NCBI GenBank assembly: GCA_964441495.1
Contig: CAYTXV010000001.1
Location: 58,851 to 122,850, forward strand
Source of the DNA: an uncultured Candidatus Saccharibacteria bacterium
Lineage (GTDB): Bacteria; Patescibacteriota; Minisyncoccia; Phycocordibacterales; UBA9973
Length of the DNA: 64,000 nt
Direction: 5' to 3'
A model generated the notes under the pieces. That model was not told the origin of the DNA, searched no databases, and saw only the letters and a program-made list of their open reading frames with translations. A program made the position numbers and the translations under genes. This document shows positions 4,976 through 44,953 of this stretch, piece by piece (positions within the stretch are counted from its first letter, which is position 1; each line of letters begins with the position of its first letter).

Positions 4976-5281
4976 TTATTTTTTCTTTGCTTCCTTGCGC
5001 TTGACGGTTGGAGATTTCTTGGAAAGCACGTTCTTCTTTTTACCTTCTACTATCCCTGCCTTGACAAGCATGTTGTGCGCTGTTGGAGAGACCTGTGCAC
5101 CCATTTTGATCCAGTGCTGGATGCGCTCTTTGCTGAAAGAAACAGCATCGTTTTTGACAGTGTGAGAGCCGAGGATCTCGAGGAACTTGCCACTTTGCGC
5201 TGCGTTTTTGTGATCGGTCACCACCAAGCGAAAAGCTGGTTCGTTTTTGCGTCCGATACGTTGTAGTCTGATCTTTAACAT
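4976..5281 (-). CDS. rpsP: 30S ribosomal protein S16
   Basis: MLKIRLQRIGRKNEPAFRLVVTD... is a typical bS16 N-terminus. Confidence 0.95.
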   Translation of the reverse strand: MLKIRLQRIGRKNEPAFRLVVTDHKNAAQSGKFLEILGSHTVKNDAVSFSKERIQHWIKMGAQVSPTAHNMLVKAGIVEGKKKNVLSKKSPTVKRKEAKKK

Positions 5282-5347
5282 GTAGGCACGATAATAGCAG
5301 GGATTGTCAGATTATGCAATACAAAGACCTCATGTTAAAGTGTTTCC

Positions 5348-7279
5348 ATGGAAAACGTCTCTGTCGGGGCTGAGTATGAGGGCTCGATCAATATTTCAAC
5401 CAAAGGTATCGGCTTTGTAAAGATCCGCGATCTCAAGATCGCGATAGAAGTCCCTCGCGAAGCACTCAATCGCGCATTTCATGGTGACACAGTACGTGTA
5501 GAGGTGACCGAACTTGCAAATGCGAACCACGAAAACCCCTATGGCAAAGTGGTAGACATCACCCGCCGTGCAAAGGTTGGCTACTCTGGCACGCTCAGTT
5601 TCGAACAAGGCGCGCACTGTATCGTCACTAACGACGGTCGTATGTACACACCGATCACGATCCCACAGGAGAAACTCGGTGGTGCAAAGCAGGGTGACAA
5701 AGTGTTCTGCGCGATCACTGACTGGCCAGACCCGATGAGCTCTCCGACAGGTGAAGTCGTCAAAGTGCTCGGTAAGCCGCTCGAGAACAACGCCGAGATG
5801 CTCTCACTCGCACTCGAAAAGGGATTTGATAGCGACTACCCTCCTGCGGTTGCTGCAGAAGCTACTGCGATCAAAGCGCACGGCATAACTCCTGACGAAA
5901 TCGCACACCGCCGCGACTTTCGCCAGATCACAACGTTTACGATCGACCCCGAAGACGCCAAAGACTTTGATGATGCGATATCAGTACAGTTCTTGGATGA
6001 TGGCAAAGTAGAAATCGGTATACACATCGCAGATGTCTCGCACTACGTGCGTCCTGATACTGCGCTCGATGCAGAAGCGTACCGACGCGCGACAAGTGTC
6101 TACCTCGTCGACCGCACAATACCCATGCTCCCCGAAGCACTCTCGAACGACATGTGCTCACTCAACCCTGATGTCGACCGACTCACCATGTCTGCAGTGT
6201 TTATCATCGACAAAGACATGAAGATCGTCGATGAATGGTATGGCAAGACAGTCATACACTCACACCAGCGCTTCACATACGAGGGTGCACAAAAAGTACT
6301 CGATACAAAAGAAGGACCATTTTTGAAAGAGCTTGAAGCAGCGCTCAAGATTGCACAACACCTCGAAAAGGAACGCTTCAACAATGGCGCGATGGTGCTT
6401 GATACTGTCGAAGTGAAATTTAAACTCGATGAACACGGCGTACCGCTCTCTGCGTACGTCAAACAGCGCGGTCCGACACATCACATGATCGAGGAGCTCA
6501 TGCTCCTTGCCAACCGCAAAGTTGCAGAGTTCATCACCACTGGTGACAAAGACAACTCGCGCGTGTTCGTCTACCGCATCCACGATGCACCCGATCCAGA
6601 ACGTATGGAAGACCTCAAGGTGTTTCTCAAGCGTATGGGGTACACACTCCCTGTCGATGACGATGGCATCATCCCCGCGCGAGCGCTCAATGATCTCGTC
6701 CAGTCGCTCGATGGCAAACCAGAAAAGGAAACAATCCAAACCGCAATCGTCCGCTCAATGGCAAAAGCAATCTATAGCACCAAAAACATCGGTCACTATG
6801 GACTTGCATTTGAGTTTTACACTCACTTCACTTCTCCGATCCGTAGATACCCAGACACTGTCGTACATCGACTCCTCACCCACTACCTCGGCAACGGCAC
6901 CATCCCCAAAGAAATGTGGGAGTACTACGACAAAGTTTGCCAGCACTCATCAGTACGCGAAAAGGAAGCTGCAGATGCAGAACGTGCATCTATCAAATAC
7001 AAGCAGGTTGAGTACATGTCGACTCGTGTAGGCAAAGTGTTTGATGGCACAATCACTGGCGTATCTCCAAACGGTATATTCATCGAAGAAAAAGAAACTC
7101 GGTGTGAAGGCATGGCACGACTGCGTGACCTCGGGAGTGATTTCTTTGAGTACAACGAAAAGGAACTTGCCATCGTTGGTCGCAAAACACGCAAAACATT
7201 TCGCATCGGTGACACTGTCAGGTTCAAAGTCAGCAATGCCGATATCGTGAAGCGATTACTTGATTATGTACTGGTATAA
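5348..7279 (+). CDS. rnr: ribonuclease R (RNB family 3'-5' exoribonuclease)
   Basis: N-terminal cold-shock/OB region, RNB motifs (FTIDPEDAKDFDDAISV, IHIADVSHYV) and a C-terminal S1 domain. Confidence 0.9.
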   Translation: MENVSVGAEYEGSINISTKGIGFVKIRDLKIAIEVPREALNRAFHGDTVRVEVTELANANHENPYGKVVDITRRAKVGYSGTLSFEQGAHCIVTNDGRMYTPITIPQEKLGGAKQGDKVFCAITDWPDPMSSPTGEVVKVLGKPLENNAEMLSLALEKGFDSDYPPAVAAEATAIKAHGITPDEIAHRRDFRQITTFTIDPEDAKDFDDAISVQFLDDGKVEIGIHIADVSHYVRPDTALDAEAYRRATSVYLVDRTIPMLPEALSNDMCSLNPDVDRLTMSAVFIIDKDMKIVDEWYGKTVIHSHQRFTYEGAQKVLDTKEGPFLKELEAALKIAQHLEKERFNNGAMVLDTVEVKFKLDEHGVPLSAYVKQRGPTHHMIEELMLLANRKVAEFITTGDKDNSRVFVYRIHDAPDPERMEDLKVFLKRMGYTLPVDDDGIIPARALNDLVQSLDGKPEKETIQTAIVRSMAKAIYSTKNIGHYGLAFEFYTHFTSPIRRYPDTVVHRLLTHYLGNGTIPKEMWEYYDKVCQHSSVREKEAADAERASIKYKQVEYMSTRVGKVFDGTITGVSPNGIFIEEKETRCEGMARLRDLGSDFFEYNEKELAIVGRKTRKTFRIGDTVRFKVSNADIVKRLLDYVLV

Positions 7280-27595: not shown

Positions 27596-27629
27596 TTGAC
27601 ATTCTATCAGAAAAGTTGTAATGTTGCAA
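27596..27629. promoter_or_regulatory. divergent promoter module A (minus TTGCAA-17-TAGAAT; plus TTGACA-17-TAATGT)
   Basis: A 43-bp element, tgtttgacattcta(t/a)cagaaaagttgtaatgttgcaaaaaaca, repeated almost identically at 28592-28634. Confidence 0.5.
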
Positions 27630-27720
27630 AAAACACAAATTATGTTAAAAAAACTTTTTGACACGCCACCGAAACGACAATATAGCTCTAGGTTATATGG
27701 AGGAAGGTTGTCATCTGAAG

Positions 27721-27912
27721 ATGACAGAAGATGATTTGGTAAAATGGTTTACTGACCCGCAACTTTTTTCGACCCCATTTACAAAACCCGAAGAGATTGA
27801 GATTTATGAAAATACAGAAAATGCTTTTTCTTTTGAGGAGCTTTCTAAAAAGGCAAAATCTCAACTCCGCACAGATCTGGTCAAACAAATTATTGAGCGA
27901 AGGTCAAACTAA
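27721..27912 (+). CDS. small acidic hypothetical protein (about 63 aa)
   Basis: ATG preceded by GGAGGAAGG; lies between promoter module A and terminator A. No family. Confidence 0.3.
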   Translation: MTEDDLVKWFTDPQLFSTPFTKPEEIEIYENTENAFSFEELSKKAKSQLRTDLVKQIIERRSN

Positions 27913-27932
27913 AATGTTTATGCCTTAAATGA

Positions 27933-27961
27933 AAATCCCTGGAGTATATCCAGGGATTTTT
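27933..27961. terminator. hairpin aaaatccctgga-gtatat-ccagggatttt
   Basis: Perfect 12-bp stem with flanking A and T runs (bidirectional). Confidence 0.6.
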
Positions 27962-28592
27962 TACGCTTTTCTCTTCGCCTTTGCTCGCTCTGTTTCAGTG
28001 AGAAATCTTATGAAAAACTTCAAATCTTTTAGCGTATTTATATTTATACAATCACTCGAATAAGGAATTGCTGAAACATGTTTTTTAAGAAATGCTTGAA
28101 TATTGAGAGACGAAATATAACTCAACAAATCTGCTTCTGTTTTTTGAAATAAAACAGGTACAGAGTACAAGTTTTTGTGAGCATCATACATGCATACACT
28201 TTTTTACTACCAAAAGCTTTGTATTTCTCAAGAATCTCTGAGTTGTAAAAAATATCTCCGTGACTAAATATAAAAGCGCTATTTGTAATAAATGATTGTA
28301 TTTCTTTGTAAGCAAAAGGATTTTTGCTTTTTTGCCAATCAAGAACACAAGTTCGATAACGAGCCTTTGGGAAAAAATTATTTTGTACAAAGTTTTGAAA
28401 TAATGCTACCTGCCAATCTTTTTCAAACACAAGAAGAAAATCTTTTACTCCAAACAAAACAAGTATTTGAATCTGGTATGTCAGTAACGGCTTACCCTTT
28501 ATGAAACAAAGCGACTTGGGAATGATACCACCTGTTAGTTCAGGAATTCTTTTTCCTTGCCCACCTACCACCAACACCGCTTTTTTGAACAT
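27961..28592 (-). pseudogene. sugar-phosphate nucleotidyltransferase gene interrupted by a frameshift, ending in a typA-like 3' tail
   Basis: MFKKAVLVVGGQGKRIPELTGG...GKPLLTYQI is the NTP-transferase N-terminus. The reading frame breaks near 28122-28191, and the protein continues in the 27961-28191 ORF ending ...FLTETERAKAKRKA. The last ~46 nt are about 80% identical to the typA 3' end at 29003-29048. Confidence 0.55.
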
Positions 28593-28594
28593 GT

Positions 28595-28628
28595 TTGACA
28601 TTCTAACAGAAAAGTTGTAATGTTGCAA
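28595..28628. promoter_or_regulatory. divergent promoter module B (copy of module A)
   Basis: Same TTGACA / TAGAAT / TTGCAA arrangement. The minus-strand TSS is predicted at or near the NTase ATG (leaderless). Confidence 0.5.
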
Positions 28629-28655
28629 AAAACATTTCTAACTAAAAATAATTTT

Positions 28656-28958
28656 ATGACGAAAGAAAAAGAGAGGTTACCTAGAGAAACATATTCTATA
28701 GGTGATAATATCATCCTTGAAAACAGAGAACCCTTGAAAGGAAATGATATAGCTCCCCCGTTTCCAAAACGAAAGAAAAACTACAAAGTACTGAGGATAG
28801 AGCTCGACTCAAAAGGCAACCAACATTTAGGAGTTGGCTTAAAATCAAAAGTTAACTTTGTGAGATCATATGAAACAGGTGAACGCCTTACTGGGAGTGG
28901 TAATACACATTATTGTCACCCTTCTCGATTTAGAAAAAAAGTAAAAAGAAACAAATAG
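28656..28958 (+). CDS. small basic hypothetical protein (100 aa)
   Basis: MTKEKERLPRETYSIGDNI...GNTHYCHPSRFRKKVKRNK; no family recognised. Confidence 0.3.
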   Translation: MTKEKERLPRETYSIGDNIILENREPLKGNDIAPPFPKRKKNYKVLRIELDSKGNQHLGVGLKSKVNFVRSYETGERLTGSGNTHYCHPSRFRKKVKRNK

Positions 28959-28970
28959 TTTCCTCTAACA

Positions 28971-29000
28971 AAAATCCCCGATCACATGATCGGGGATTTT
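28971..29000. terminator. hairpin aaaatccccgatc-acat-gatcggggatttt
   Basis: Perfect 13-bp stem; bidirectional terminator shared by typA and the small ORF. Confidence 0.6.
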
Positions 29001-30931: not shown

Positions 30932-32698
30932 TCATTCTTTGCCAAGAAACTTTGTCCACCCAGGAAAATCAGGATAAATCCGCCGAGGATCGTAGACTAG
31001 CCCCGGATCTTTTTTATAGGATTGTTTATAGCTAGTTATAGAATTTATTCCTAAAGTTTTACAAGCTTTTGAGGCTTCTTTCCAATTCTTATATCGGGCT
31101 TTACCTAAAAACACAACGTAACCAGGAAAATCTGAGTACACTGTTTCAGGGCGCGAAGGAAGTTTTGGATCTTTTTTAAAATCAATTTTATATTGATCAA
31201 AAGTTTTAATCCCTAATTTGATTGCAGCTTTAGATGCTAACTTCCAAGACTTGTAAAAATTTTTTGGTTTTCTTCCAAGGAAGATGTACCACTTTGGAAA
31301 ATTTTTATATGTCCTATTTGGATTTCCTGGAAGTCTTGGGTCTTCTTTAAATCTATTTTTATAATCCGTATAATTTTTGATTCCCAATTTAACAGCTGCC
31401 TCAGAAGCTTCCTGCCATGTCGGGTAAAAATCTTGCCCCAATCTCTCAAACACAGAGAATAAATTTACAACCTGATCTGAGAAGTCAAAACTAAATCCTT
31501 TTCCTTCAACATGAAGCGGAGACATATTCGGTGTGCCATTCTTCTTCCGTTCAATTCCGGCGATTGTTTCAATCTCCAGTGCAAGTTTTGCAACCTGTTT
31601 GATCCGTTCAATGTTTCCGACAAAGTCCAGTACGACAACTTTTTCTTTTCCAGGAACTTTTCGCAACCCTCTTCCGAGCTGTTGATAAAAAATCCGTTCA
31701 GATTCAGTACGCCTGAGGAAACTCAGAAGTTCTGTATCAGGAATATCAATACCTTCATTGAACTTATCAACGACTAGCACATGTTTAACTGCGCCGGTTT
31801 CGAATAGTTCATAGTTAGCATCATTTACCCCTGTTGCCTGTTGTGAATGGATAGATACGGAGGATGGAAGCAAGAAACTGATGTGCTGTGCGTGTTGGAT
31901 ATTTTCGCAAAACACAATCGCTTTCCTTGTTTTTGAATACTGTTGAATGATTTTGCACTGCTCCTGAGAACGGACTTTGATAAAGATCTTTTCATTGATT
32001 TGCTTTTCTGTCATACGAACATTGTCGTCGAGGACATCTTTGCAAATTTGTCTGATTTTTTCTTCATCAAGTCCATCAGAAAGCAATTTGTATTCAACAG
32101 GGGTCAACCATCCTTTTGCGATTGCTTCGGGTAAGAGGATTTTTACAACCTCTTCTCCGAATATGTCGCGGATATCTTCTCCATCTTCACGATCAGGAGT
32201 TGCGGTCATGCCAAGCTTATACTTTGGCTTGAAGTAATTGATTACTTCAGCGTAGGTTTCCGCTTGAGCGTGATGACTTTCGTCTACCACAATAAACGTA
32301 AAGTGCTTTGGAGAAAATAATTTCTTCTTTGCCTTTGGATTATTGAGGTGCGCAAGAACTGATTGGAATGTGGCAAACACGAAATTGTGTTTATCTGCCT
32401 CCCAGTCTTTTTGGGTGCCATAAAATTTGGCATAGGTGTATGATTCCCCGATATACTTTCTGTAATCCTTGTATGTCTTGTTTAAGATGCCATTATCGTG
32501 GCACAGAAAAAGTACTCTGTCTTTCGGGGTAATGAAATATTTCACCACCTCGATCGACACAATCGTTTTTCCCAAACCAGTAACCATGACCATAAGGGCA
32601 CGGAAGGTTTTCTTAAGCGCAGCAACAAGTTTCTTGAAAGCTATACCTTGGTAATCATACAGTTTGATTTGTTTACTGTTTGATTTTGAATGTGCCAT
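30932..32698 (-). CDS. SF2 DExH helicase (ResIII + helicase C) with three tandem ~55-aa C-terminal repeats
   Basis: YDYQ, GLGKT and VVDESHH motifs, a helicase C domain (QQLGRGLR), then three repeats of W.EAS.AA.KLGI..(5)YK..FKKDP.LP..P..(V/I)Y.(D/N)FPGW..FLGK. AT-rich gene. Confidence 0.8.
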   Translation of the reverse strand: MAHSKSNSKQIKLYDYQGIAFKKLVAALKKTFRALMVMVTGLGKTIVSIEVVKYFITPKDRVLFLCHDNGILNKTYKDYRKYIGESYTYAKFYGTQKDWEADKHNFVFATFQSVLAHLNNPKAKKKLFSPKHFTFIVVDESHHAQAETYAEVINYFKPKYKLGMTATPDREDGEDIRDIFGEEVVKILLPEAIAKGWLTPVEYKLLSDGLDEEKIRQICKDVLDDNVRMTEKQINEKIFIKVRSQEQCKIIQQYSKTRKAIVFCENIQHAQHISFLLPSSVSIHSQQATGVNDANYELFETGAVKHVLVVDKFNEGIDIPDTELLSFLRRTESERIFYQQLGRGLRKVPGKEKVVVLDFVGNIERIKQVAKLALEIETIAGIERKKNGTPNMSPLHVEGKGFSFDFSDQVVNLFSVFERLGQDFYPTWQEASEAAVKLGIKNYTDYKNRFKEDPRLPGNPNRTYKNFPKWYIFLGRKPKNFYKSWKLASKAAIKLGIKTFDQYKIDFKKDPKLPSRPETVYSDFPGYVVFLGKARYKNWKEASKACKTLGINSITSYKQSYKKDPGLVYDPRRIYPDFPGWTKFLGKE

Positions 32699-32763: not shown

Positions 32764-32806
32764 ATTTTTCAATATTATACTATATTTAGACAATAAAGTC
32801 AAATAT

Positions 32807-33060
32807 TTGGAGCCAATGATCGGGATTGAACCGATGACCTCCCCCTTCGCTCCTACCTCAATTTCGAAACCTTATATGAGGGCTAGACTGTATCTTTACG
32901 CCTATGGCGTACCCTTGTCAGTCGTTCGGGCGAGTACATCGCCACGGTCTTGTCTCTTTCAAGATATTAACCGTTATTCGGGATTCACCACAAAATTACT
33001 TTTATGGTGGGCAGAAACGCGTTCTACCATGGGGGTGCTCTACCAACTGAGCTACATTGG
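32807..33060 (-). tRNA. tRNA-Thr (anticodon GGU) interrupted by a 178-nt intervening sequence between positions 36 and 37; CCA encoded
   Basis: Exon 1 (33060-33025) is gccaatg-ta-gctc-agttggta-gagc-a-ccccc-atggt. Exon 2 (32846-32807) is aa-ggggg-aggtc-atcgg-ttcaatc-ccgat-cattggc-t-cca. The acceptor halves gccaatg/cattggc pair perfectly, and the spliced loop reads auGGUaa. Confidence 0.6.
32847..33024 (-). ncRNA. group I-like intron in the tRNA-Thr anticodon loop
   Basis: The 5' splice site follows U with a possible P1 (exon GGU + intron AG pairing with CUGCC, U.G wobble at the junction). Candidate P7 GACUG/CAGUC flanks a P8 hairpin guacgcc-aua-ggcguaa, and the intron ends in G. Hand-folded only. 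Confidence 0.4.
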
Positions 33061-33083
33061 CGTGGTATTGCTCCTGCAAAATA

Positions 33084-33680
33084 TCACATTTTGCGTACTT
33101 TTTCAAGAGAATCAATAATAAGATCTCGAAGTTTCTTATTGTTCATAAACACTGTAAGAACTCCATATTTTACTTTATTTGCATATGTTCCTTTTTTATT
33201 AGAAATGCTAATCGTTGTTTTATAAAATTGGTTTTCTGAAACATTAAGATGTTTAATCCAAAATTTTTTTGCCTCTTTTTCACAAATATCAGTAAAAAGT
33301 TGTAATCCGAAGTGTAACTGTTCTTTTTTGATTGAATAAGTCTGATTAAGAAATTCAATGAATTTTTTTATTAAATCTGGATCGGTGTTACCGAGTCGTA
33401 CTGAATGCGTTGAGCGTTTTGTTCCCTCGCCCCAATAAAGTCCCAATCCCATACCATACAAAAACCATTCTTTACTAGTTTTTGGTTGATTAAAAACAAA
33501 TGGATCTCCTTTTGGGTTTTTTAATGTATATATTGCATCAGAGATAGAACGTTTCTTAATTGCATATTTTTGCAAATAATAATTGATTGTCGATGTTCCA
33601 ACTGAAAGCTTTTTTGCTATTTGTGCAGCAGAAAGACTTTTCTTAGTATACAGAGTATCAAGAATCTTCTTGGTAATCAT
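33084..33680 (-). CDS. HTH + LAGLIDADG-like (single-motif) homing endonuclease-like protein, free-standing upstream of the intron-bearing tRNA
   Basis: N-terminal helix-turn-helix (LSAAQIAKKLSVGTSTINYYL), then WFLYGMGLGLYWGEGTK resembling a degenerate LAGLIDADG block with an acidic residue retained. AT-rich. Confidence 0.45.
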   Translation of the reverse strand: MITKKILDTLYTKKSLSAAQIAKKLSVGTSTINYYLQKYAIKKRSISDAIYTLKNPKGDPFVFNQPKTSKEWFLYGMGLGLYWGEGTKRSTHSVRLGNTDPDLIKKFIEFLNQTYSIKKEQLHFGLQLFTDICEKEAKKFWIKHLNVSENQFYKTTISISNKKGTYANKVKYGVLTVFMNNKKLRDLIIDSLEKVRKM

Positions 33681-42964: not shown

Positions 42965-43630
42965 CTATTGTACGCTGATCTGTCCGGTAGACCAAACAGT
43001 CACTGAGCGTTTGAGACCTTTTGCTGACTCAAGGTTAAGTGTGACATAAGGGATGTCACAGAGATATTCAGCTGTATTTGATCTCATGCAGATAACTGCA
43101 TCAGGGCTTGGTCGTTCAAACGTGATGGCAACGTCTGCGTCATCAGTAAAGCATGCAGGACGACTACCACTTACTACAACAGCACAGATACTTGAGATCT
43201 TGTCTGCAGTCGTGATAGTGAAGCTTTCAAGGCATTCGTCATCAGGTGCAGGATTGCCGCACTGTGTACCTTTTTCGTATAGGTTTTGACCGTTACTACC
43301 TGTTTGTGCAAAGAGTACAAACTGCTTGGGTCCTGGCGTCATAGGATCTGGCGGAGTAAGCGGGCCATCGACAGCGAAACTAATGCCGTACCCAGGAAAT
43401 GTCTGACTATCGACACCACTGAGTCCTTCGATTGGGCGTGCACTTGTTGCATAGGTTTGTGCTTTGCGGATAGAGAGCGCGACTTCTTGCGCGAGGTTGC
43501 GCACTGACACATTGGTGCTAAAGTCTGAGTAGTTGAAGATGATCACACTCGACACCGCAGCGATAATCGCAACGACGACGATCATCTCGATGAGTGTCAC
43601 ACCTGCTTGTAAGGGGTTCTTTAGTGCCAT
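42965..43630 (-). CDS. type IV minor pilin
   Basis: AGVTLIEMIVVVAIIA. Confidence 0.65.
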   Translation of the reverse strand: MALKNPLQAGVTLIEMIVVVAIIAAVSSVIIFNYSDFSTNVSVRNLAQEVALSIRKAQTYATSARPIEGLSGVDSQTFPGYGISFAVDGPLTPPDPMTPGPKQFVLFAQTGSNGQNLYEKGTQCGNPAPDDECLESFTITTADKISSICAVVVSGSRPACFTDDADVAITFERPSPDAVICMRSNTAEYLCDIPYVTLNLESAKGLKRSVTVWSTGQISVQ

Positions 43631-44409
43631 ACTGGAAAGAGTGATTGTATTGTAACACCCCACAGCACTACGATACAAAGTCCGATGATGAGAAATGGCC
43701 CAAATGCAATCTCACTCTTCATCCCGTAGCGACGCGAGATACCGATGAGGAGTAGTCCAACGATTGCTCCAATCCAAAACGCAAGGAGTACTGCAGTAAA
43801 TCCTTGTACAAGTCCAACAAGCCAGCCGATCGCAAGTGCAAGCTTCACATCACCAAACCCCATCGCTCTGCCTTTGGAGAAATACCATAATGCAAAAAAC
43901 GGAAGTGTAACGATCGTCCCCTCAAGGATGCGTCCCCATGGCAAAAACAGTGGATCCTGCACTGCGCTCCAGATGATCGATGCAAATGCAAGTAGTATCA
44001 GCGGGTACACCACGGTATCGGGGATAATCTTGTGGCGAAGGTCATAGACAGTGATCACGATAAGCAGGGACGCAACCGTTGCAGCAAATCCCCAACTGAT
44101 GAGCGCGTACATGCTCAATCCACCAATCAAGAACTTGGTGTACAGAAGCACAAACACAATCGCAGTCACGAGCTCGACGATCGGGTACTGCACCGAGATA
44201 TCTCTGCGACAGGTGCGACACTTGCCACGTAGTCCGATGAACGAAAACACCGGGATGAGCTCATACCAGCGGAGCGTATGGTTGCAGCGTGCGCAGGCAC
44301 TGCGCCCAGTGACGACAGATCGCCCCGTGTTGAGACGCAGTATAACAACGTTGAGGAAACTCCCTACCAGGAGTCCGAGTGTAAATACAAGTAATGGGAT
44401 AAATATAAG
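43621..44409 (-). CDS. pilD: prepilin peptidase (A24 family)
   Basis: N-terminal CxxC...CxxC zinc-binding region, multi-TM, DUF/peptidase A24 layout. Start trimmed to avoid overlap with pilA. Confidence 0.8.
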   Translation of the reverse strand, partial: LIFIPLLVFTLGLLVGSFLNVVILRLNTGRSVVTGRSACARCNHTLRWYELIPVFSFIGLRGKCRTCRRDISVQYPIVELVTAIVFVLLYTKFLIGGLSMYALISWGFAATVASLLIVITVYDLRHKIIPDTVVYPLILLAFASIIWSAVQDPLFLPWGRILEGTIVTLPFFALWYFSKGRAMGFGDVKLALAIGWLVGLVQGFTAVLLAFWIGAIVGLLLIGISRRYGMKSEIAFGPFLIIGLCIVVLWGVTIQSLFPVWH

Positions 44410-44416
44410 CATATAA

Positions 44417-44953
44417 TTATAAACACCGAGCGCCGGTGGTAGTAAACAGTCCACTAGCATTTGCAGTAACTGGGGAGTTTTGCTGTTTTGCAATTCCCTG
44501 TGCATCGACACACCAAGACTTGGTTGGGTCTGATTTGAGTGTCACCGCAACAGCCCAATCAGTGCTCGTACTAGTACACGCAGTATTCCAATAGATGTGT
44601 GTTGCTGCTCCTCCTGACTGCTTATTTGCTTCCGCAATAATCTGATTTATTTTGACCGACTGAGGAGAAGCTGCTTTTTGGAATATATTATCATCGGCAC
44701 TAAGGTTAACTGGGCAATACCCTCCTGGATTACCAGTATTGGGGTATGGGACTGATCCAAAACTCCCCTGATCGATACTATAAAGCTGCCCTTCAGTTCT
44801 GATTTGCGCAAGACCTGCTTTGATGTTTGCATCAGCTGCTTTGTCGCGAGCAGAACGAAGTGACGCAAGCACCACAGACGCAAGGATACCAATGATTGCG
44901 ATCACCACGAGGAGTTCGATGAGGGTGAAGCCTTTTTGATAAGGTGATTTCAT
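44417..44953 (-). CDS. pilA: type IV major pilin paralog 1
   Basis: KGFTLIELLVVIAIIGILASVVLASL class III signal. Confidence 0.85.
   Translation of the reverse strand: MKSPYQKGFTLIELLVVIAIIGILASVVLASLRSARDKAADANIKAGLAQIRTEGQLYSIDQGSFGSVPYPNTGNPGGYCPVNLSADDNIFQKAASPQSVKINQIIAEANKQSGGAATHIYWNTACTSTSTDWAVAVTLKSDPTKSWCVDAQGIAKQQNSPVTANASGLFTTTGARCL

What the first reader, a model, noticed from the sequence alone, without database searches (positions are those of the whole stretch)
32807..33680. tRNA-Thr(GGU) split by a 178-nt group I-like intron, with a free-standing HTH/LAGLIDADG-like ORF immediately upstream
The two tRNA halves are 214 nt apart, with acceptor strands gccaatg and cattggc. They close into a canonical cloverleaf only after removal of 32847-33024, which is inserted between anticodon-loop positions 36 and 37. 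The intervening sequence has group I hallmarks readable by eye. These are a 5' splice site after U with a possible U.G P1 against an internal guide CUGCC, a GACUG/CAGUC P7-like pairing around a P8 hairpin, and a terminal G. At 178 nt it would be among the smallest group I introns. An AT-rich HTH plus degenerate LAGLIDADG (MGLGLYWGEG) ORF ends 24 nt upstream of the tRNA. That arrangement is reminiscent of free-standing homing endonuclease genes that mobilise neighbouring introns.
Basis: partly seen in the sequence, partly recalled or inferred. Interest (0 to 1): 0.75.

Follow-up and report, generated by a model that had tools for sequence, protein, structure and literature searches.

The report
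Split tRNA-Thr gene with endonuclease-like neighbour
A threonine tRNA gene of a Patescibacteria (CPR) bacterium is interrupted by a very small group I intron of a type already reported, and directly upstream sits a previously undescribed, apparently selfish, homing-endonuclease-like gene that abuts this same tRNA gene in hundreds of related species.

Summary
On the minus strand, tRNA-Thr(GGU) (33061..32808) is split after U36 by a 178-nt insert.

Rfam RF00028 gives only 13.6 bits. However, 57 distinct homologous inserts support a full group I fold: 95% of cells are paired, against 75% in shuffles. The fold has an invariant U.G P1, covarying P2, P5, P6, P8 and P9, the P3/P7 pseudoknot, P9.0 and a terminal G. 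This intron class was already reported in Patescibacteria (Nakagawa 2026).

- At least 544 species genomes encode relatives.
- In 75 of 80 loci the ORF abuts tRNA-Thr(GGU). 58 of those tRNAs have the intron and 17 do not.
- Only about a third of intron-bearing loci have the ORF.
- Remnants and empty sites exist, and the ORF is AT-richer than its flanks in 76 of 76 loci.

The best reading is a self-splicing intron plus an optional free-standing homing endonuclease gene that targets the tRNA gene. Nuclease activity and the target site are inferred, not shown. I did not find the ORF-tRNA association in the literature I could search.

The parts
33026..33061 (-). tRNA-Thr(GGU) 5' exon (positions 1-36), ending in anticodon G34 G35 U36
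   Evidence: ARAGORN with introns allowed. Boundary re-derived under the U/G rule.
32848..33025 (-). 178-nt group I intron inserted between tRNA positions 36 and 37
   Evidence: The weak RF00028 hit spans 33013..32869.
32808..32847 (-). tRNA-Thr(GGU) 3' exon (positions 37-76), with encoded CCA at 32810-32808
33010..33028 (-). P1 hairpin. Exon GGU (33028-33026) pairs with the internal guide GCC (33012-33010), with U36.G at the splice site. The P1 extension is AGA (33025-33023) with UCU (33015-33013). The L1 loop contains CGC (33021-33019).
   Evidence: GC, GC and UG are each invariant in 57 of 57 sequences, and the extension covaries. Coordinates.
32988..33007 (-). P2 hairpin with GUAA tetraloop (32999-32996)
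   Evidence: All 8 pairs show compensatory changes. L2 is GNRA in 51 of 57 sequences.
32980..32982 (-). P3 5' strand (CCC), pairing with GGG at 32914-32912 to form the pseudoknot with P7
   Evidence: 98.2% of cells paired. CG changes to UA at each of the three pairs (1, 3 and 3 sequences).
32944..32974 (-). P4 (ACGGUU with GACCGU) enclosing P5 (UCUU-GAAA-GAGA)
   Evidence: P4 is invariant apart from one U.G/C-G pair. P5 covaries at all 4 pairs.
32929..32943 (-). P6 hairpin (GGCGAU ... CUCGCC)
   Evidence: 5 of 6 pairs show compensatory changes, for example GGC/GCC to CCC/GGG.
32886..32928 (-). Catalytic core: J6/7 CGAAC, P7 GACUG (32923-32919) with CAGUC (32890-32886), P3 3' strand GGG (32914-32912), P8 hairpin (32911-32897), J8/7 AAGAUA. 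The string AAGAUACAGUC matches the group I consensus AAGAUAUAGUC.
   Evidence: Invariant in 57 of 57 sequences. Aligned with high posterior probability to the RF00028 consensus. P8 covaries.
32848..32883 (-). P9.0 (GC 32883-32882 with GC 32850-32849), P9 hairpin (32881-32856) and the terminal guanosine omegaG (32848)
   Evidence: P9.0 is 100% paired (GC:45, AU:11, GU:1 and CG:39, UA:15, UG:3). P9 has 6 of 6 pairs covarying.
33084..33680 (-). 198-aa free-standing ORF. Residues 1-55 form an N-terminal HTH module. Residues about 62-198 form a LAGLIDADG-like domain. The invariant motif G76-x-G78-x-G80-LYW-G84-E85-G86 is encoded at about 33455-33423.

Best explanation
There are two linked but separable elements.

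(1) A compact group I ribozyme of 178 nt interrupts the apparently sole tRNA-Thr(GGU) gene between anticodon-loop positions 36 and 37. After transcription, exogenous guanosine attacks the phosphate after U36. U36 is presented as a U.G wobble in a short P1 (exon GGU with guide GCC). The terminal G then docks, positioned by P9.0, and the exons, held together by the anticodon stem, are ligated to give a normal tRNA.

(2) Directly upstream on the same strand is an optional, AT-rich gene for a single-motif LAGLIDADG-type protein with an N-terminal HTH. This is most likely a homodimeric free-standing homing endonuclease that recognises the tRNA-Thr(GGU) gene. It would cut alleles lacking it and be copied in by repair, using the tRNA gene as one homology arm. 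Where the intron is present it splits the anticodon-arm DNA. That would protect the carrier chromosome and let intron and endonuclease gene spread together (collaborative homing).

Shown here: the gene structure, the RNA fold by covariation, the protein fold class, the tight ORF-tRNA linkage, and the presence/absence polymorphism of both elements.

Inferred: self-splicing, nuclease activity, the position of the target site, and protection by the intron.
For: RNA:
- The spliced product is a canonical tRNA-Thr(GGU).
- Across 57 distinct introns, 95.1% of cells are paired against 75.3% in shuffles (0 of 500 reach the observed value) and 35-45% with slid partners. The covariation score is 0.549 against 0.165. 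39 of 55 pairs carry double changes.
- The P1 U.G, the P7 helix and the J8/7-P7 string AAGAUACAGUC are invariant.
- The P3 pseudoknot and P9.0 covary.
- L2 is GNRA in 51 of 57 sequences.

Protein:
- AF2 pLDDT is 87-88.
- GLYWGEG is invariant at the end of the first helix.
- The N-terminal HTH resembles the HTH of phage endonuclease families.
- Single-domain LAGLIDADG enzymes are active homodimers in CPR rRNA insertions (PMC11270868).

Selfish, optional behaviour:
- At least 544 species genomes encode relatives.
- The ORF abuts tRNA-Thr(GGU) in 75 of 80 loci. 37 ORFs overlap the tRNA gene, and 25 use the tRNA's U8-A9-G10 as their TAG stop.
- ORF GC is below flank GC in 76 of 76 loci.
- Starting from the intron, of 61 informative loci, 20 have the full ORF, 2 have C-terminal remnants and 33 have none. 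One locus has a frameshifted copy (L074).
- Empty sites with tRNA-Tyr directly before tRNA-Thr contrast with filled sites holding the ORF between them.
- Paralogues lie upstream of other tRNA genes.
- A bona fide LAGLIDADG_3 gene lies upstream of an intron-bearing tRNA-Asp.
- Intron-plus alleles keep CC/GG at anticodon-stem positions 30-31/39-40 in 54 of 55 cases. Intron-less alleles beside the ORF do so in 4 of 18 (Fisher p = 1e-10).
- Collaborative homing is an established pathway in phages (PMC3984707).
Against: - RF00028 scores 13.6 bits against a cutoff of 50.
- No Pfam LAGLIDADG model reaches its cutoff for the window protein. 4 of 25 relatives hit LAGLIDADG_3 weakly (best E 0.0063), and 0 of 10 divergent relatives hit at all.
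- hhalign against a bona fide LAGLIDADG_3 family gives E = 0.25.
- Foldseek against the PDB finds nothing significant.
- The first beta-hairpin after the motif is modelled with low confidence.
- 17 of 75 ORFs sit next to an intron-less tRNA, and 4 of those tRNAs carry the same CC/GG arm as intron-plus alleles. The intron is therefore not required for coexistence.
- The CC/GG contrast could reflect a splicing constraint or phylogeny. ORF-less, intron-less CPR alleles were not sampled.
- The sequence upstream of the ORF is not conserved between species, so repair-based spread between distant lineages is hard to explain.
- No cleavage, splicing or expression data exist here.
Confidence: 0.55

Rival explanations
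1. The ORF is not a nuclease. It would be a LAGLIDADG-derived nucleic-acid-binding protein that serves the tRNA locus, either as a maturase that helps the minimal intron fold, or as a WhiA-like HTH plus LAGLIDADG DNA-binding regulator of tRNA-Thr transcription.
Against: About 54-64% of intron-bearing loci have no adjacent ORF, so the intron does not depend on it. 17 of 75 ORFs and several paralogues accompany intron-less tRNA genes. The acidic residue of the motif (E85) is invariant, whereas non-catalytic relatives typically lose it (own knowledge). AT-rich composition in 76 of 76 loci, remnants and empty sites all point to a dispensable element.
Confidence: 0.2
2. The ORF is an ordinary conserved Patescibacteria gene that merely shares an ancestral operon with tRNA-Thr(GGU). 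Its adjacency to the intron would be coincidental.
For: The ORF is found across many CPR classes at 47-77% identity and always in the same orientation relative to the tRNA. All sources label it a hypothetical protein.
Against: The wider neighbourhood differs between loci while the ORF-tRNA junction is fixed. The ORF shows presence/absence at the same syntenic site, between tRNA-Tyr and tRNA-Thr. Truncated and frameshifted copies exist. GC is lower than in the flanks in 76 of 76 loci. The fold class is that of homing endonucleases.
Confidence: 0.1
3. The 178-nt insert is not a splicing intron. It would be a disrupted or pseudogenised tRNA, or an insertion that is removed or tolerated in some other way.
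For: RF00028 falls below its cutoff. No expression data are available.
Against: This is the only tRNA-Thr(GGU) detected in the window. The exons are intact and covary as a tRNA anticodon stem. The insert is conserved at the same site in more than 130 loci, with helix-preserving substitutions throughout. Introns of related Patescibacteria tRNAs self-splice in vitro (PMC13011429).
Confidence: 0.03

Closest known systems
Divergent group I introns at position 36/37 of tRNA-Thr(GGU) in Patescibacteria (Nakagawa et al. 2026, PMC13011429, which cites Castelle et al. 2018)
   Same: Same host gene, same insertion site, same phylum. The same behaviour with tools is seen here: RF00028 misses the intron, and ARAGORN often miscalls the gene as Arg(GCG) 34/35.
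   Different: That paper lists three complete genomes. As far as I could read, it gives no structure for this intron class and no flanking ORF. [quoted passage not shown] I did not compare sequences directly with their three genomes.
Small bacterial pre-tRNA group I introns, for example Azoarcus tRNA-Ile(CAU), Agrobacterium tRNA-Arg and cyanobacterial tRNA-fMet and tRNA-Leu (Reinhold-Hurek and Shub 1992; own knowledge plus PMC3984707)
   Same: Insertion in the anticodon loop. A 3-bp P1 made of anticodon nucleotides, with U.G at the splice site. A compact P1-P9 core without large peripheral domains. A GNRA L2 loop. Exons held together by the anticodon stem.
   Different: A different tRNA. The sequence is too divergent for RF00028. 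At 169-229 nt, most members are shorter than the 205-nt Azoarcus intron (that length is from my own knowledge). The subgroup (IC3-like or IA) was not determined here.
Collaborative (trans) homing of a free-standing endonuclease with an ORF-less intron: F-CphI with the psbA intron in cyanophage S-PM2, and MobE with the nrdB intron in T-even phages (PMC3984707, PMC6083498, PMC2790892)
   Same: [quoted passage not shown] Both elements vary independently in presence.
   Different: Those cases are in phage protein-coding genes, with Endo VII-like or HNH enzymes and mapped cleavage sites. Here the host is a cellular bacterium, the target gene is a tRNA, and the enzyme is LAGLIDADG-like. The ORF physically overlaps the 5' end of the tRNA gene, and no cleavage data exist.
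Single-domain LAGLIDADG homing endonucleases of CPR rRNA insertions, for example I-ShaI (PMC11270868), and I-CreI-type homodimers
   Same: Same phylum, a single LAGLIDADG-type domain, about 20 kDa, and an expected homodimer.
   Different: Those enzymes are encoded inside the intervening sequence and match Pfam LAGLIDADG models. The window protein is free-standing, has an extra N-terminal HTH, and matches no Pfam LAGLIDADG model at its cutoff.
WhiA (bacterial LAGLIDADG-derived HTH transcription factor)
   Different: WhiA has two degenerate LAGLIDADG domains followed by a C-terminal HTH, lacks the catalytic acid residue, and is a conserved housekeeping gene (own knowledge). Here there is one domain, an N-terminal HTH, an invariant Glu, and patchy distribution.

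Membership tests
Group I intron (Rfam RF00028 Intron_gpI) | Scores at or above the curated gathering threshold of the covariance model | tested here: not met
   13.6 bits against a cutoff of 50, E 0.24-0.61. Only P2 and the P8/J8/7/P7/P9 segment align with confidence.
Group I intron (Rfam RF00028 Intron_gpI) | 5' splice site follows a U that forms a U.G wobble with an internal guide sequence in P1 | tested here: met
   Exon GGU with intron GCC gives GC, GC and UG, each in 57 of 57 sequences, followed by a covarying P1 extension.
Group I intron (Rfam RF00028 Intron_gpI) | Intron ends in G (omegaG), positioned by P9.0 | tested here: met
   G in 57 of 57 sequences. Boundaries were chosen under this rule, but it is the only choice that yields tRNA-Thr(GGU). 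P9.0 is 100% paired with 11 and 15 double changes.
Group I intron (Rfam RF00028 Intron_gpI) | Core topology of P3-P4-P5-P6-P7-P8-P9 with the P3/P7 pseudoknot | tested here: met
   All helices were recovered. P3 is 98.2% paired with compensatory changes at each of its 3 pairs. P4 and P7 are invariant. P5, P6, P8 and P9 covary.
Group I intron (Rfam RF00028 Intron_gpI) | Conserved core sequence at J8/7-P7 (consensus AAGAUAUAGUC) | tested here: met
   AAGAUACAGUC aligns with high posterior probability in the RF00028 alignment. The segment ATACAGTCTA is invariant in 57 of 57 sequences.
Group I intron (Rfam RF00028 Intron_gpI) | Guanosine-dependent self-splicing | not testable with these tools
Patescibacteria tRNA-Thr(GGU) 36/37 divergent group I introns (PMC13011429) | Inserted between positions 36 and 37 of tRNA-Thr(GGU) in a Patescibacteria genome, and missed by RF00028 | tested here: met
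   The homologous loci are almost all labelled Patescibacteria/CPR.
Patescibacteria tRNA-Thr(GGU) 36/37 divergent group I introns (PMC13011429) | Sequence homology to the three published examples (GCA_001029635.1, GCA_016700375.1, GCA_030583745.1) | not tested
   Those genomes were not fetched. Homology is presumed from the identical site and host gene.
LAGLIDADG homing endonuclease | Match to a Pfam LAGLIDADG model (PF00961, PF03161, PF14528) at its gathering score | tested here: not met
   The window protein has no hit. 4 of 25 relatives hit LAGLIDADG_3 weakly, best E 0.0063. 0 of 10 divergent relatives hit. hhalign against a bona fide LAGLIDADG_3 family gives E 0.25, although the alignment is motif to motif.
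LAGLIDADG homing endonuclease | LAGLIDADG core fold (alpha-beta-beta-alpha-beta-beta-alpha) | tested here: met
LAGLIDADG homing endonuclease | Gly-rich first helix ending in a conserved acidic residue (metal ligand) | tested here: met
   G76, G78, G80, W83, G84, E85 and G86 are invariant in 25 of 25 sequences, at the C-terminal end of helix 69-81. The equivalence of E85 to the catalytic Asp is by position, not by experiment.
LAGLIDADG homing endonuclease | Site-specific double-strand DNA cleavage, and dimerisation of single-motif enzymes | not testable with these tools
   Requires biochemistry.
Free-standing endonuclease with ORF-less intron (collaborative homing) | Endonuclease gene outside but adjacent to the intron-containing gene, with independent presence/absence of both | tested here: met
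   ORF+/intron+ in 58 loci and ORF+/intron- in 17. ORF-/intron+ in 33 loci, plus 2 remnants, of 61.
Free-standing endonuclease with ORF-less intron (collaborative homing) | The endonuclease cleaves the intron-less allele at or near the intron insertion site, and the intron-containing allele is immune | tested here: inconclusive
   Indirect evidence only. The anticodon arm is CC/GG in 54 of 55 intron+ alleles against 4 of 18 intron-less ORF-adjacent alleles. This could also be a splicing constraint or phylogeny.

The most novel reading that the evidence does not exclude
This family, with its paralogues beside tRNA-Thr(UGU), tRNA-Tyr, tRNA-Met and tRNA-Asp, would be a previously unrecognised radiation of free-standing homing endonucleases in Patescibacteria that home on tRNA genes themselves and insert exactly at the 5' edge of the gene. 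For tRNA-Thr(GGU), the palindromic anticodon-arm DNA would be the homodimer's target, and the ORF-less intron would act as the immunity element. That would be the first case of collaborative homing in a cellular bacterium and in an RNA gene. It would mean that tRNA introns of Patescibacteria are mobile after all.

There is a further twist. In a third of loci the ORF's stop codon is the tRNA's own U8-A9-G10. RNase P processing of the tRNA would then remove the stop codon from the mRNA, which could throttle endonuclease expression.
Probability: 0.35. Interest if true: 0.75.

Novelty: new variant of a known kind. Interest (0 to 1): 0.58.

Why it matters
The intron itself confirms a class already reported. 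It also adds what appears to be the first covariation-supported secondary structure for that class, and shows that natural group I ribozymes of 169-180 nt are common in Patescibacteria.

The neighbouring gene is the more useful result. A large family (at least 544 species, thousands of cluster representatives) with no annotation can now be read as a tRNA-gene-associated, LAGLIDADG-fold, probably selfish element. The published survey inferred that Patescibacteria tRNA introns lack endonucleases and are therefore rarely transferred. That survey looked only inside introns. An endonuclease gene parked just outside would change the inference.

If the protein is active, it would also be a compact HTH plus single-LAGLIDADG nuclease with a defined natural target, and a simple system for studying how introns and endonucleases cooperate in reduced genomes.

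Tried and rejected
- Rfam at gathering and at permissive thresholds: only a sub-threshold RF00028 hit.
- Profile search of the protein family against PDB sequences: no meaningful hit.
- Foldseek of the full-length model against the PDB: nothing significant.
- Pfam on 25 family members and on 10 divergent representatives: HTH only, plus 4 weak LAGLIDADG_3 hits.
- hhalign of the family against the tRNA-Asp-associated LAGLIDADG_3 protein and against its family profile: not significant.
- Idea that the AT-rich helicase downstream is an element integrated at the tRNA 3' end: no att-like direct repeat was found, and alignment with relative L001 was uninformative. Left open.
- Promoter and terminator scan of the ORF-tRNA unit: hits were no more frequent than in shuffles, so co-transcription cannot be decided.
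- ARAGORN calls of tRNA-Arg(GCG), His(GUG) and Pro(GGG) with introns at 34/35: rejected as boundary misplacements. The implied identity changes between orthologues, whereas Thr(GGU) is constant.
- Castelle et al. 2018 could not be read.
- Williams 2020 gave no detail on tRNA-Thr introns.
- I did not build a covariance model, because the comparative counts already settled the fold.
Full report
**1. The observation**

The minus strand of 33061..32808 reads GCCAATG-TA-GCTC-AGTTGGTA-GAGC-A-CCCCC-ATGGT | 178 nt | AA-GGGGG-AGGTC-ATCGG-TTCAATC-CCGAT-CATTGGC-T-CCA. ARAGORN in default mode and the Rfam tRNA model do not report it.

An A occurs at both junctions, so the boundary is ambiguous by one base. 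The ORF at 33680..33084 ends 22 nt before the tRNA gene.

**2. The insert is a group I intron, shown by comparison rather than by the Rfam model**

RF00028 scores only 13.6 bits against a cutoff of 50. It aligns with confidence only to P2 and to the string UAAAGAUACAGUCUAG, which matches the consensus AAGAUAUAGUC. The minimum-free-energy fold alone yields a P2/P4-P5/P6/P7-P8 arrangement with z = -4.87.

I collected homologous inserts in two ways:
- Through the neighbouring protein.
- Through an intron-core DNA pattern searched in metagenomes.

ARAGORN labels many of these Arg(GCG), His(GUG) or Pro(GGG). Every one resolves to tRNA-Thr(GGU) under a single rule...(A/U)UGGU | intron ...G | AAGG.... 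The published survey noted the same miscall.

In an alignment of 57 distinct introns (A2), RNAalifold recovers these helices:
- The anticodon stem.
- P1, with exon GGU pairing to guide GCC and a U.G wobble, invariant in 57 of 57, followed by a covarying extension.
- P2, P4, P5, P6, P7, P8 and P9.

I added the P3 pseudoknot and P9.0 by hand and counted pairs.

| Measure | Observed | Shuffled partners | Slid partners |
|---|---|---|---|
| Cells paired | 95.1% | 75.3% (0 of 500 shuffles reach the observed value) | 35-45% |
| Covariation score | 0.549 | 0.165 | 0.07-0.12 |

39 of 55 pairs show changes on both sides. P3 (CCC/GGG) is 98% paired, with CG-to-UA exchanges at each of its three positions. 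P9.0 is 100% paired (GC:45/AU:11 and CG:39/UA:15). P4 (ACGGUU/GACCGU), P7 (GACUG/CAGUC), J3/4, J6/7 and J8/7 are essentially invariant. L2 is a GNRA tetraloop in 51 of 57 sequences.

This is the full defining topology of a group I ribozyme. Self-splicing itself is inferred.

**3. Size**

The family spans 169-229 nt with a median of 195. The window's 178 nt is near the short end, but shorter members exist. All of these lie below or near the 184-nt minimum found in a survey of 333 bacterial tRNA group I introns.

**4. Prior knowledge**

Nakagawa et al. 2026 (PMC13011429) list tRNA-Thr(GGU) 36/37 introns in three complete Patescibacteria genomes. They describe them as highly divergent group I introns that RF00028 cannot detect, and they cite Castelle et al. 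2018. I could not read that review. The intron class is therefore already known.

[quoted passage not shown] It examined only ORFs inside introns.

**5. The ORF**

The 198-aa protein belongs to a family with at least 1,580 close relatives and 7,764 cluster representatives in a profile search. At least 544 species-representative genomes encode it, nearly all Patescibacteria. All sources call it hypothetical.

The family has invariant blocks GLGLYWGEG, RLGNTDP, FGLQ.F, GTY..K..YGVLT and NKKLR. Evidence on its fold:
- Pfam sees only a weak N-terminal HTH.
- PHROGs matches that HTH to the DNA-binding module of phage endonuclease families.
- AlphaFold models are confident: pLDDT 87.4 for the full length and 88.3 for the C-terminal domain.
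- Foldseek against the PDB is not significant.
- The Gly-rich motif ends the first helix, with an invariant Glu where LAGLIDADG enzymes carry their metal-binding acid.
- Sequence-profile tests fail. No Pfam LAGLIDADG model reaches its cutoff. hhalign against a bona fide LAGLIDADG_3 family aligns motif to motif but gives E = 0.25.

I therefore call it LAGLIDADG-fold with moderate confidence. I do not file it as a proven member of the enzyme family.

**6. Linkage to the tRNA gene**

In 80 genomes chosen through the protein, tRNA-Thr(GGU) starts within -83 to +128 nt of the ORF stop, on the same strand, in 75 of them. 58 of those tRNAs carry the intron and 17 do not. 37 ORFs overlap the tRNA gene. 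In 25 the stop codon is the tRNA's own U8-A9-G10, read as TAG.

The wider neighbourhood varies between loci. One locus, L048, has the ORF downstream of the interrupted tRNA.

**7. The ORF is optional**

I also started from the intron rather than the protein. The table covers the 61 loci with at least 700 nt of upstream sequence.

| State upstream of the intron-bearing tRNA | Loci |
|---|---|
| Full ORF directly upstream | 20 |
| C-terminal remnant only (L096, L102) | 2 |
| Distant homologue elsewhere | 6 |
| No ORF | 33 |

Further points:
- L074 carries a frameshifted copy.
- Loci such as L093, L131, L136 and L163 have tRNA-Tyr 26-169 nt upstream of tRNA-Thr(GGU). Loci such as L033, L039, L058, L078 and L081 have the ORF inserted exactly between those two genes.
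- The ORF is AT-richer than its flanks in 76 of 76 loci, by 8.5 points on average. In the window it is 0.298 against 0.457.
- Paralogues at 27-36% identity lie directly upstream of other, uninterrupted tRNA genes: Thr(UGU), Tyr and Met.
- A bona fide two-motif LAGLIDADG_3 gene lies directly upstream of an intron-bearing tRNA-Asp in L006.

Patchy presence, decay products, foreign composition and a fixed junction with a conserved gene are what is expected of free-standing homing endonuclease genes. They argue against an obligate maturase or a housekeeping gene.

**8. A possible target site**

Intron-containing alleles have the anticodon arm NNNCC-(A/U)UGGUAA-GGNNN in 54 of 55 cases. Intron-less alleles beside the ORF keep CC/GG in only 4 of 18 (Fisher p = 1e-10).

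This fits a homodimeric enzyme recognising the palindromic anticodon-arm DNA. Carriers would be protected either by the intron, which splits the site, or by arm substitutions. A splicing constraint on the exons, or plain phylogeny, would produce the same table. I could not sample alleles lacking both ORF and intron, so this step is inference only.

**9. Mechanism proposed**

The intron self-splices through the standard two-step guanosine-initiated pathway, using the anticodon nucleotides as the P1 substrate strand.

The ORF encodes a free-standing endonuclease that targets tRNA-Thr(GGU) genes and is copied in by repair. The intron acts as a frequent but not obligatory partner. This corresponds to collaborative homing, which is known from phages (PMC3984707, PMC6083498, PMC2790892).

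My confidence that the RNA is a group I intron is about 0.9. My confidence that the protein is an active homing endonuclease is about 0.5. My confidence that the intron insertion site is its target is about 0.35.

**10. Verdict**

The intron class is already published, and the LAGLIDADG assignment rests on fold rather than on sequence models.
- The new element is the conserved free-standing gene at the 5' edge of the tRNA gene. I did not find it described in the literature I could search.

Noticed in passing
window 33019-33021 (L1 loop CGC) with 32848-32850; alignment A2 columns 16-17 with 280-281: The two nucleotides before the terminal G covary with J7/9 (P9.0, 100% paired). They also covary with a dinucleotide in the P1 loop (95% paired; GC:44/AU:7 and CG:39/UA:9). 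The two pairings are mutually exclusive. This may reflect different steps of splicing, or a P10-like substitute. It is unexplained.
   Followed up: partly
L111 99-443, L156 337-888, L160 2184-2735, L115 4430-4708: Paralogues of the 198-aa ORF (27-36% identity) lie directly upstream of other, uninterrupted tRNA genes: tRNA-Thr(UGU), tRNA-Tyr(GUA) and tRNA-Met. The superfamily as a whole appears to be associated with tRNA genes.
   Followed up: partly
L006 5529-6152 (-) with tRNA-Asp at 5238-5551 (-): A bona fide two-motif LAGLIDADG_3 protein (Pfam 32.2 bits; phrog_4645 E 8e-33; family of at least 2,122 members) overlaps the 5' end of a tRNA-Asp(GUC) gene that carries a 239-nt insert. This is the same ORF-then-interrupted-tRNA arrangement, with a different enzyme family.
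   Followed up: partly
proteins P0134, P0135, P0138, P0254 and others: Proteins of 260-820 aa consist of 5-14 tandem copies of a roughly 58-aa unit homologous to the ORF's N-terminal HTH module (PSKEEL..LY..E..S..EIAK.LGVS..TV..WL..Y.I..RS.SEA). This is a modular array of DNA-binding units of unknown function.
   Followed up: no
window 30932-32698 (-): A 588-aa ResIII/SNF2-type helicase with C-terminal 'integrase repeat' units (Pfam INT_rpt). It is phage-like (phrog_16, E 2e-67) and AT-rich. It lies between the tRNA and the BipA gene, and is absent from that position in the close relative L001. No att-like repeat was found.
   Followed up: partly
window 32774-32802 (-): A near-consensus sigma-70-type promoter (TTGACT-17-TATAAT, 11 of 12) lies immediately after the tRNA 3' end, facing the helicase gene. 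A weaker promoter-like site (33106-33078) lies inside the 3' end of the ORF, just before the tRNA.
   Followed up: no
window 43481-43644 (+): ARAGORN with introns allowed also calls a tRNA-Ile(tat) with a 76-nt insert. It lies inside two minus-strand ORFs (42965-43678 and 43621-44511) and is probably a false positive.
   Followed up: partly
L042 2132-2426; L051 185-472 (-); L137 9694-10032: Further interrupted tRNA genes occur in related Patescibacteria loci: tRNA-Tyr(GUA) with 212 nt, tRNA-Asp(GUC) with 213 nt, and a call of tRNA-Leu(CAG) with 267 nt. Several tRNA genes per genome can carry introns.
   Followed up: no
window 27600-29000: A second AT-rich stretch (GC 0.29-0.36, against about 0.47 around it) lies upstream of the BipA gene. 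Its content was not examined.
   Followed up: no
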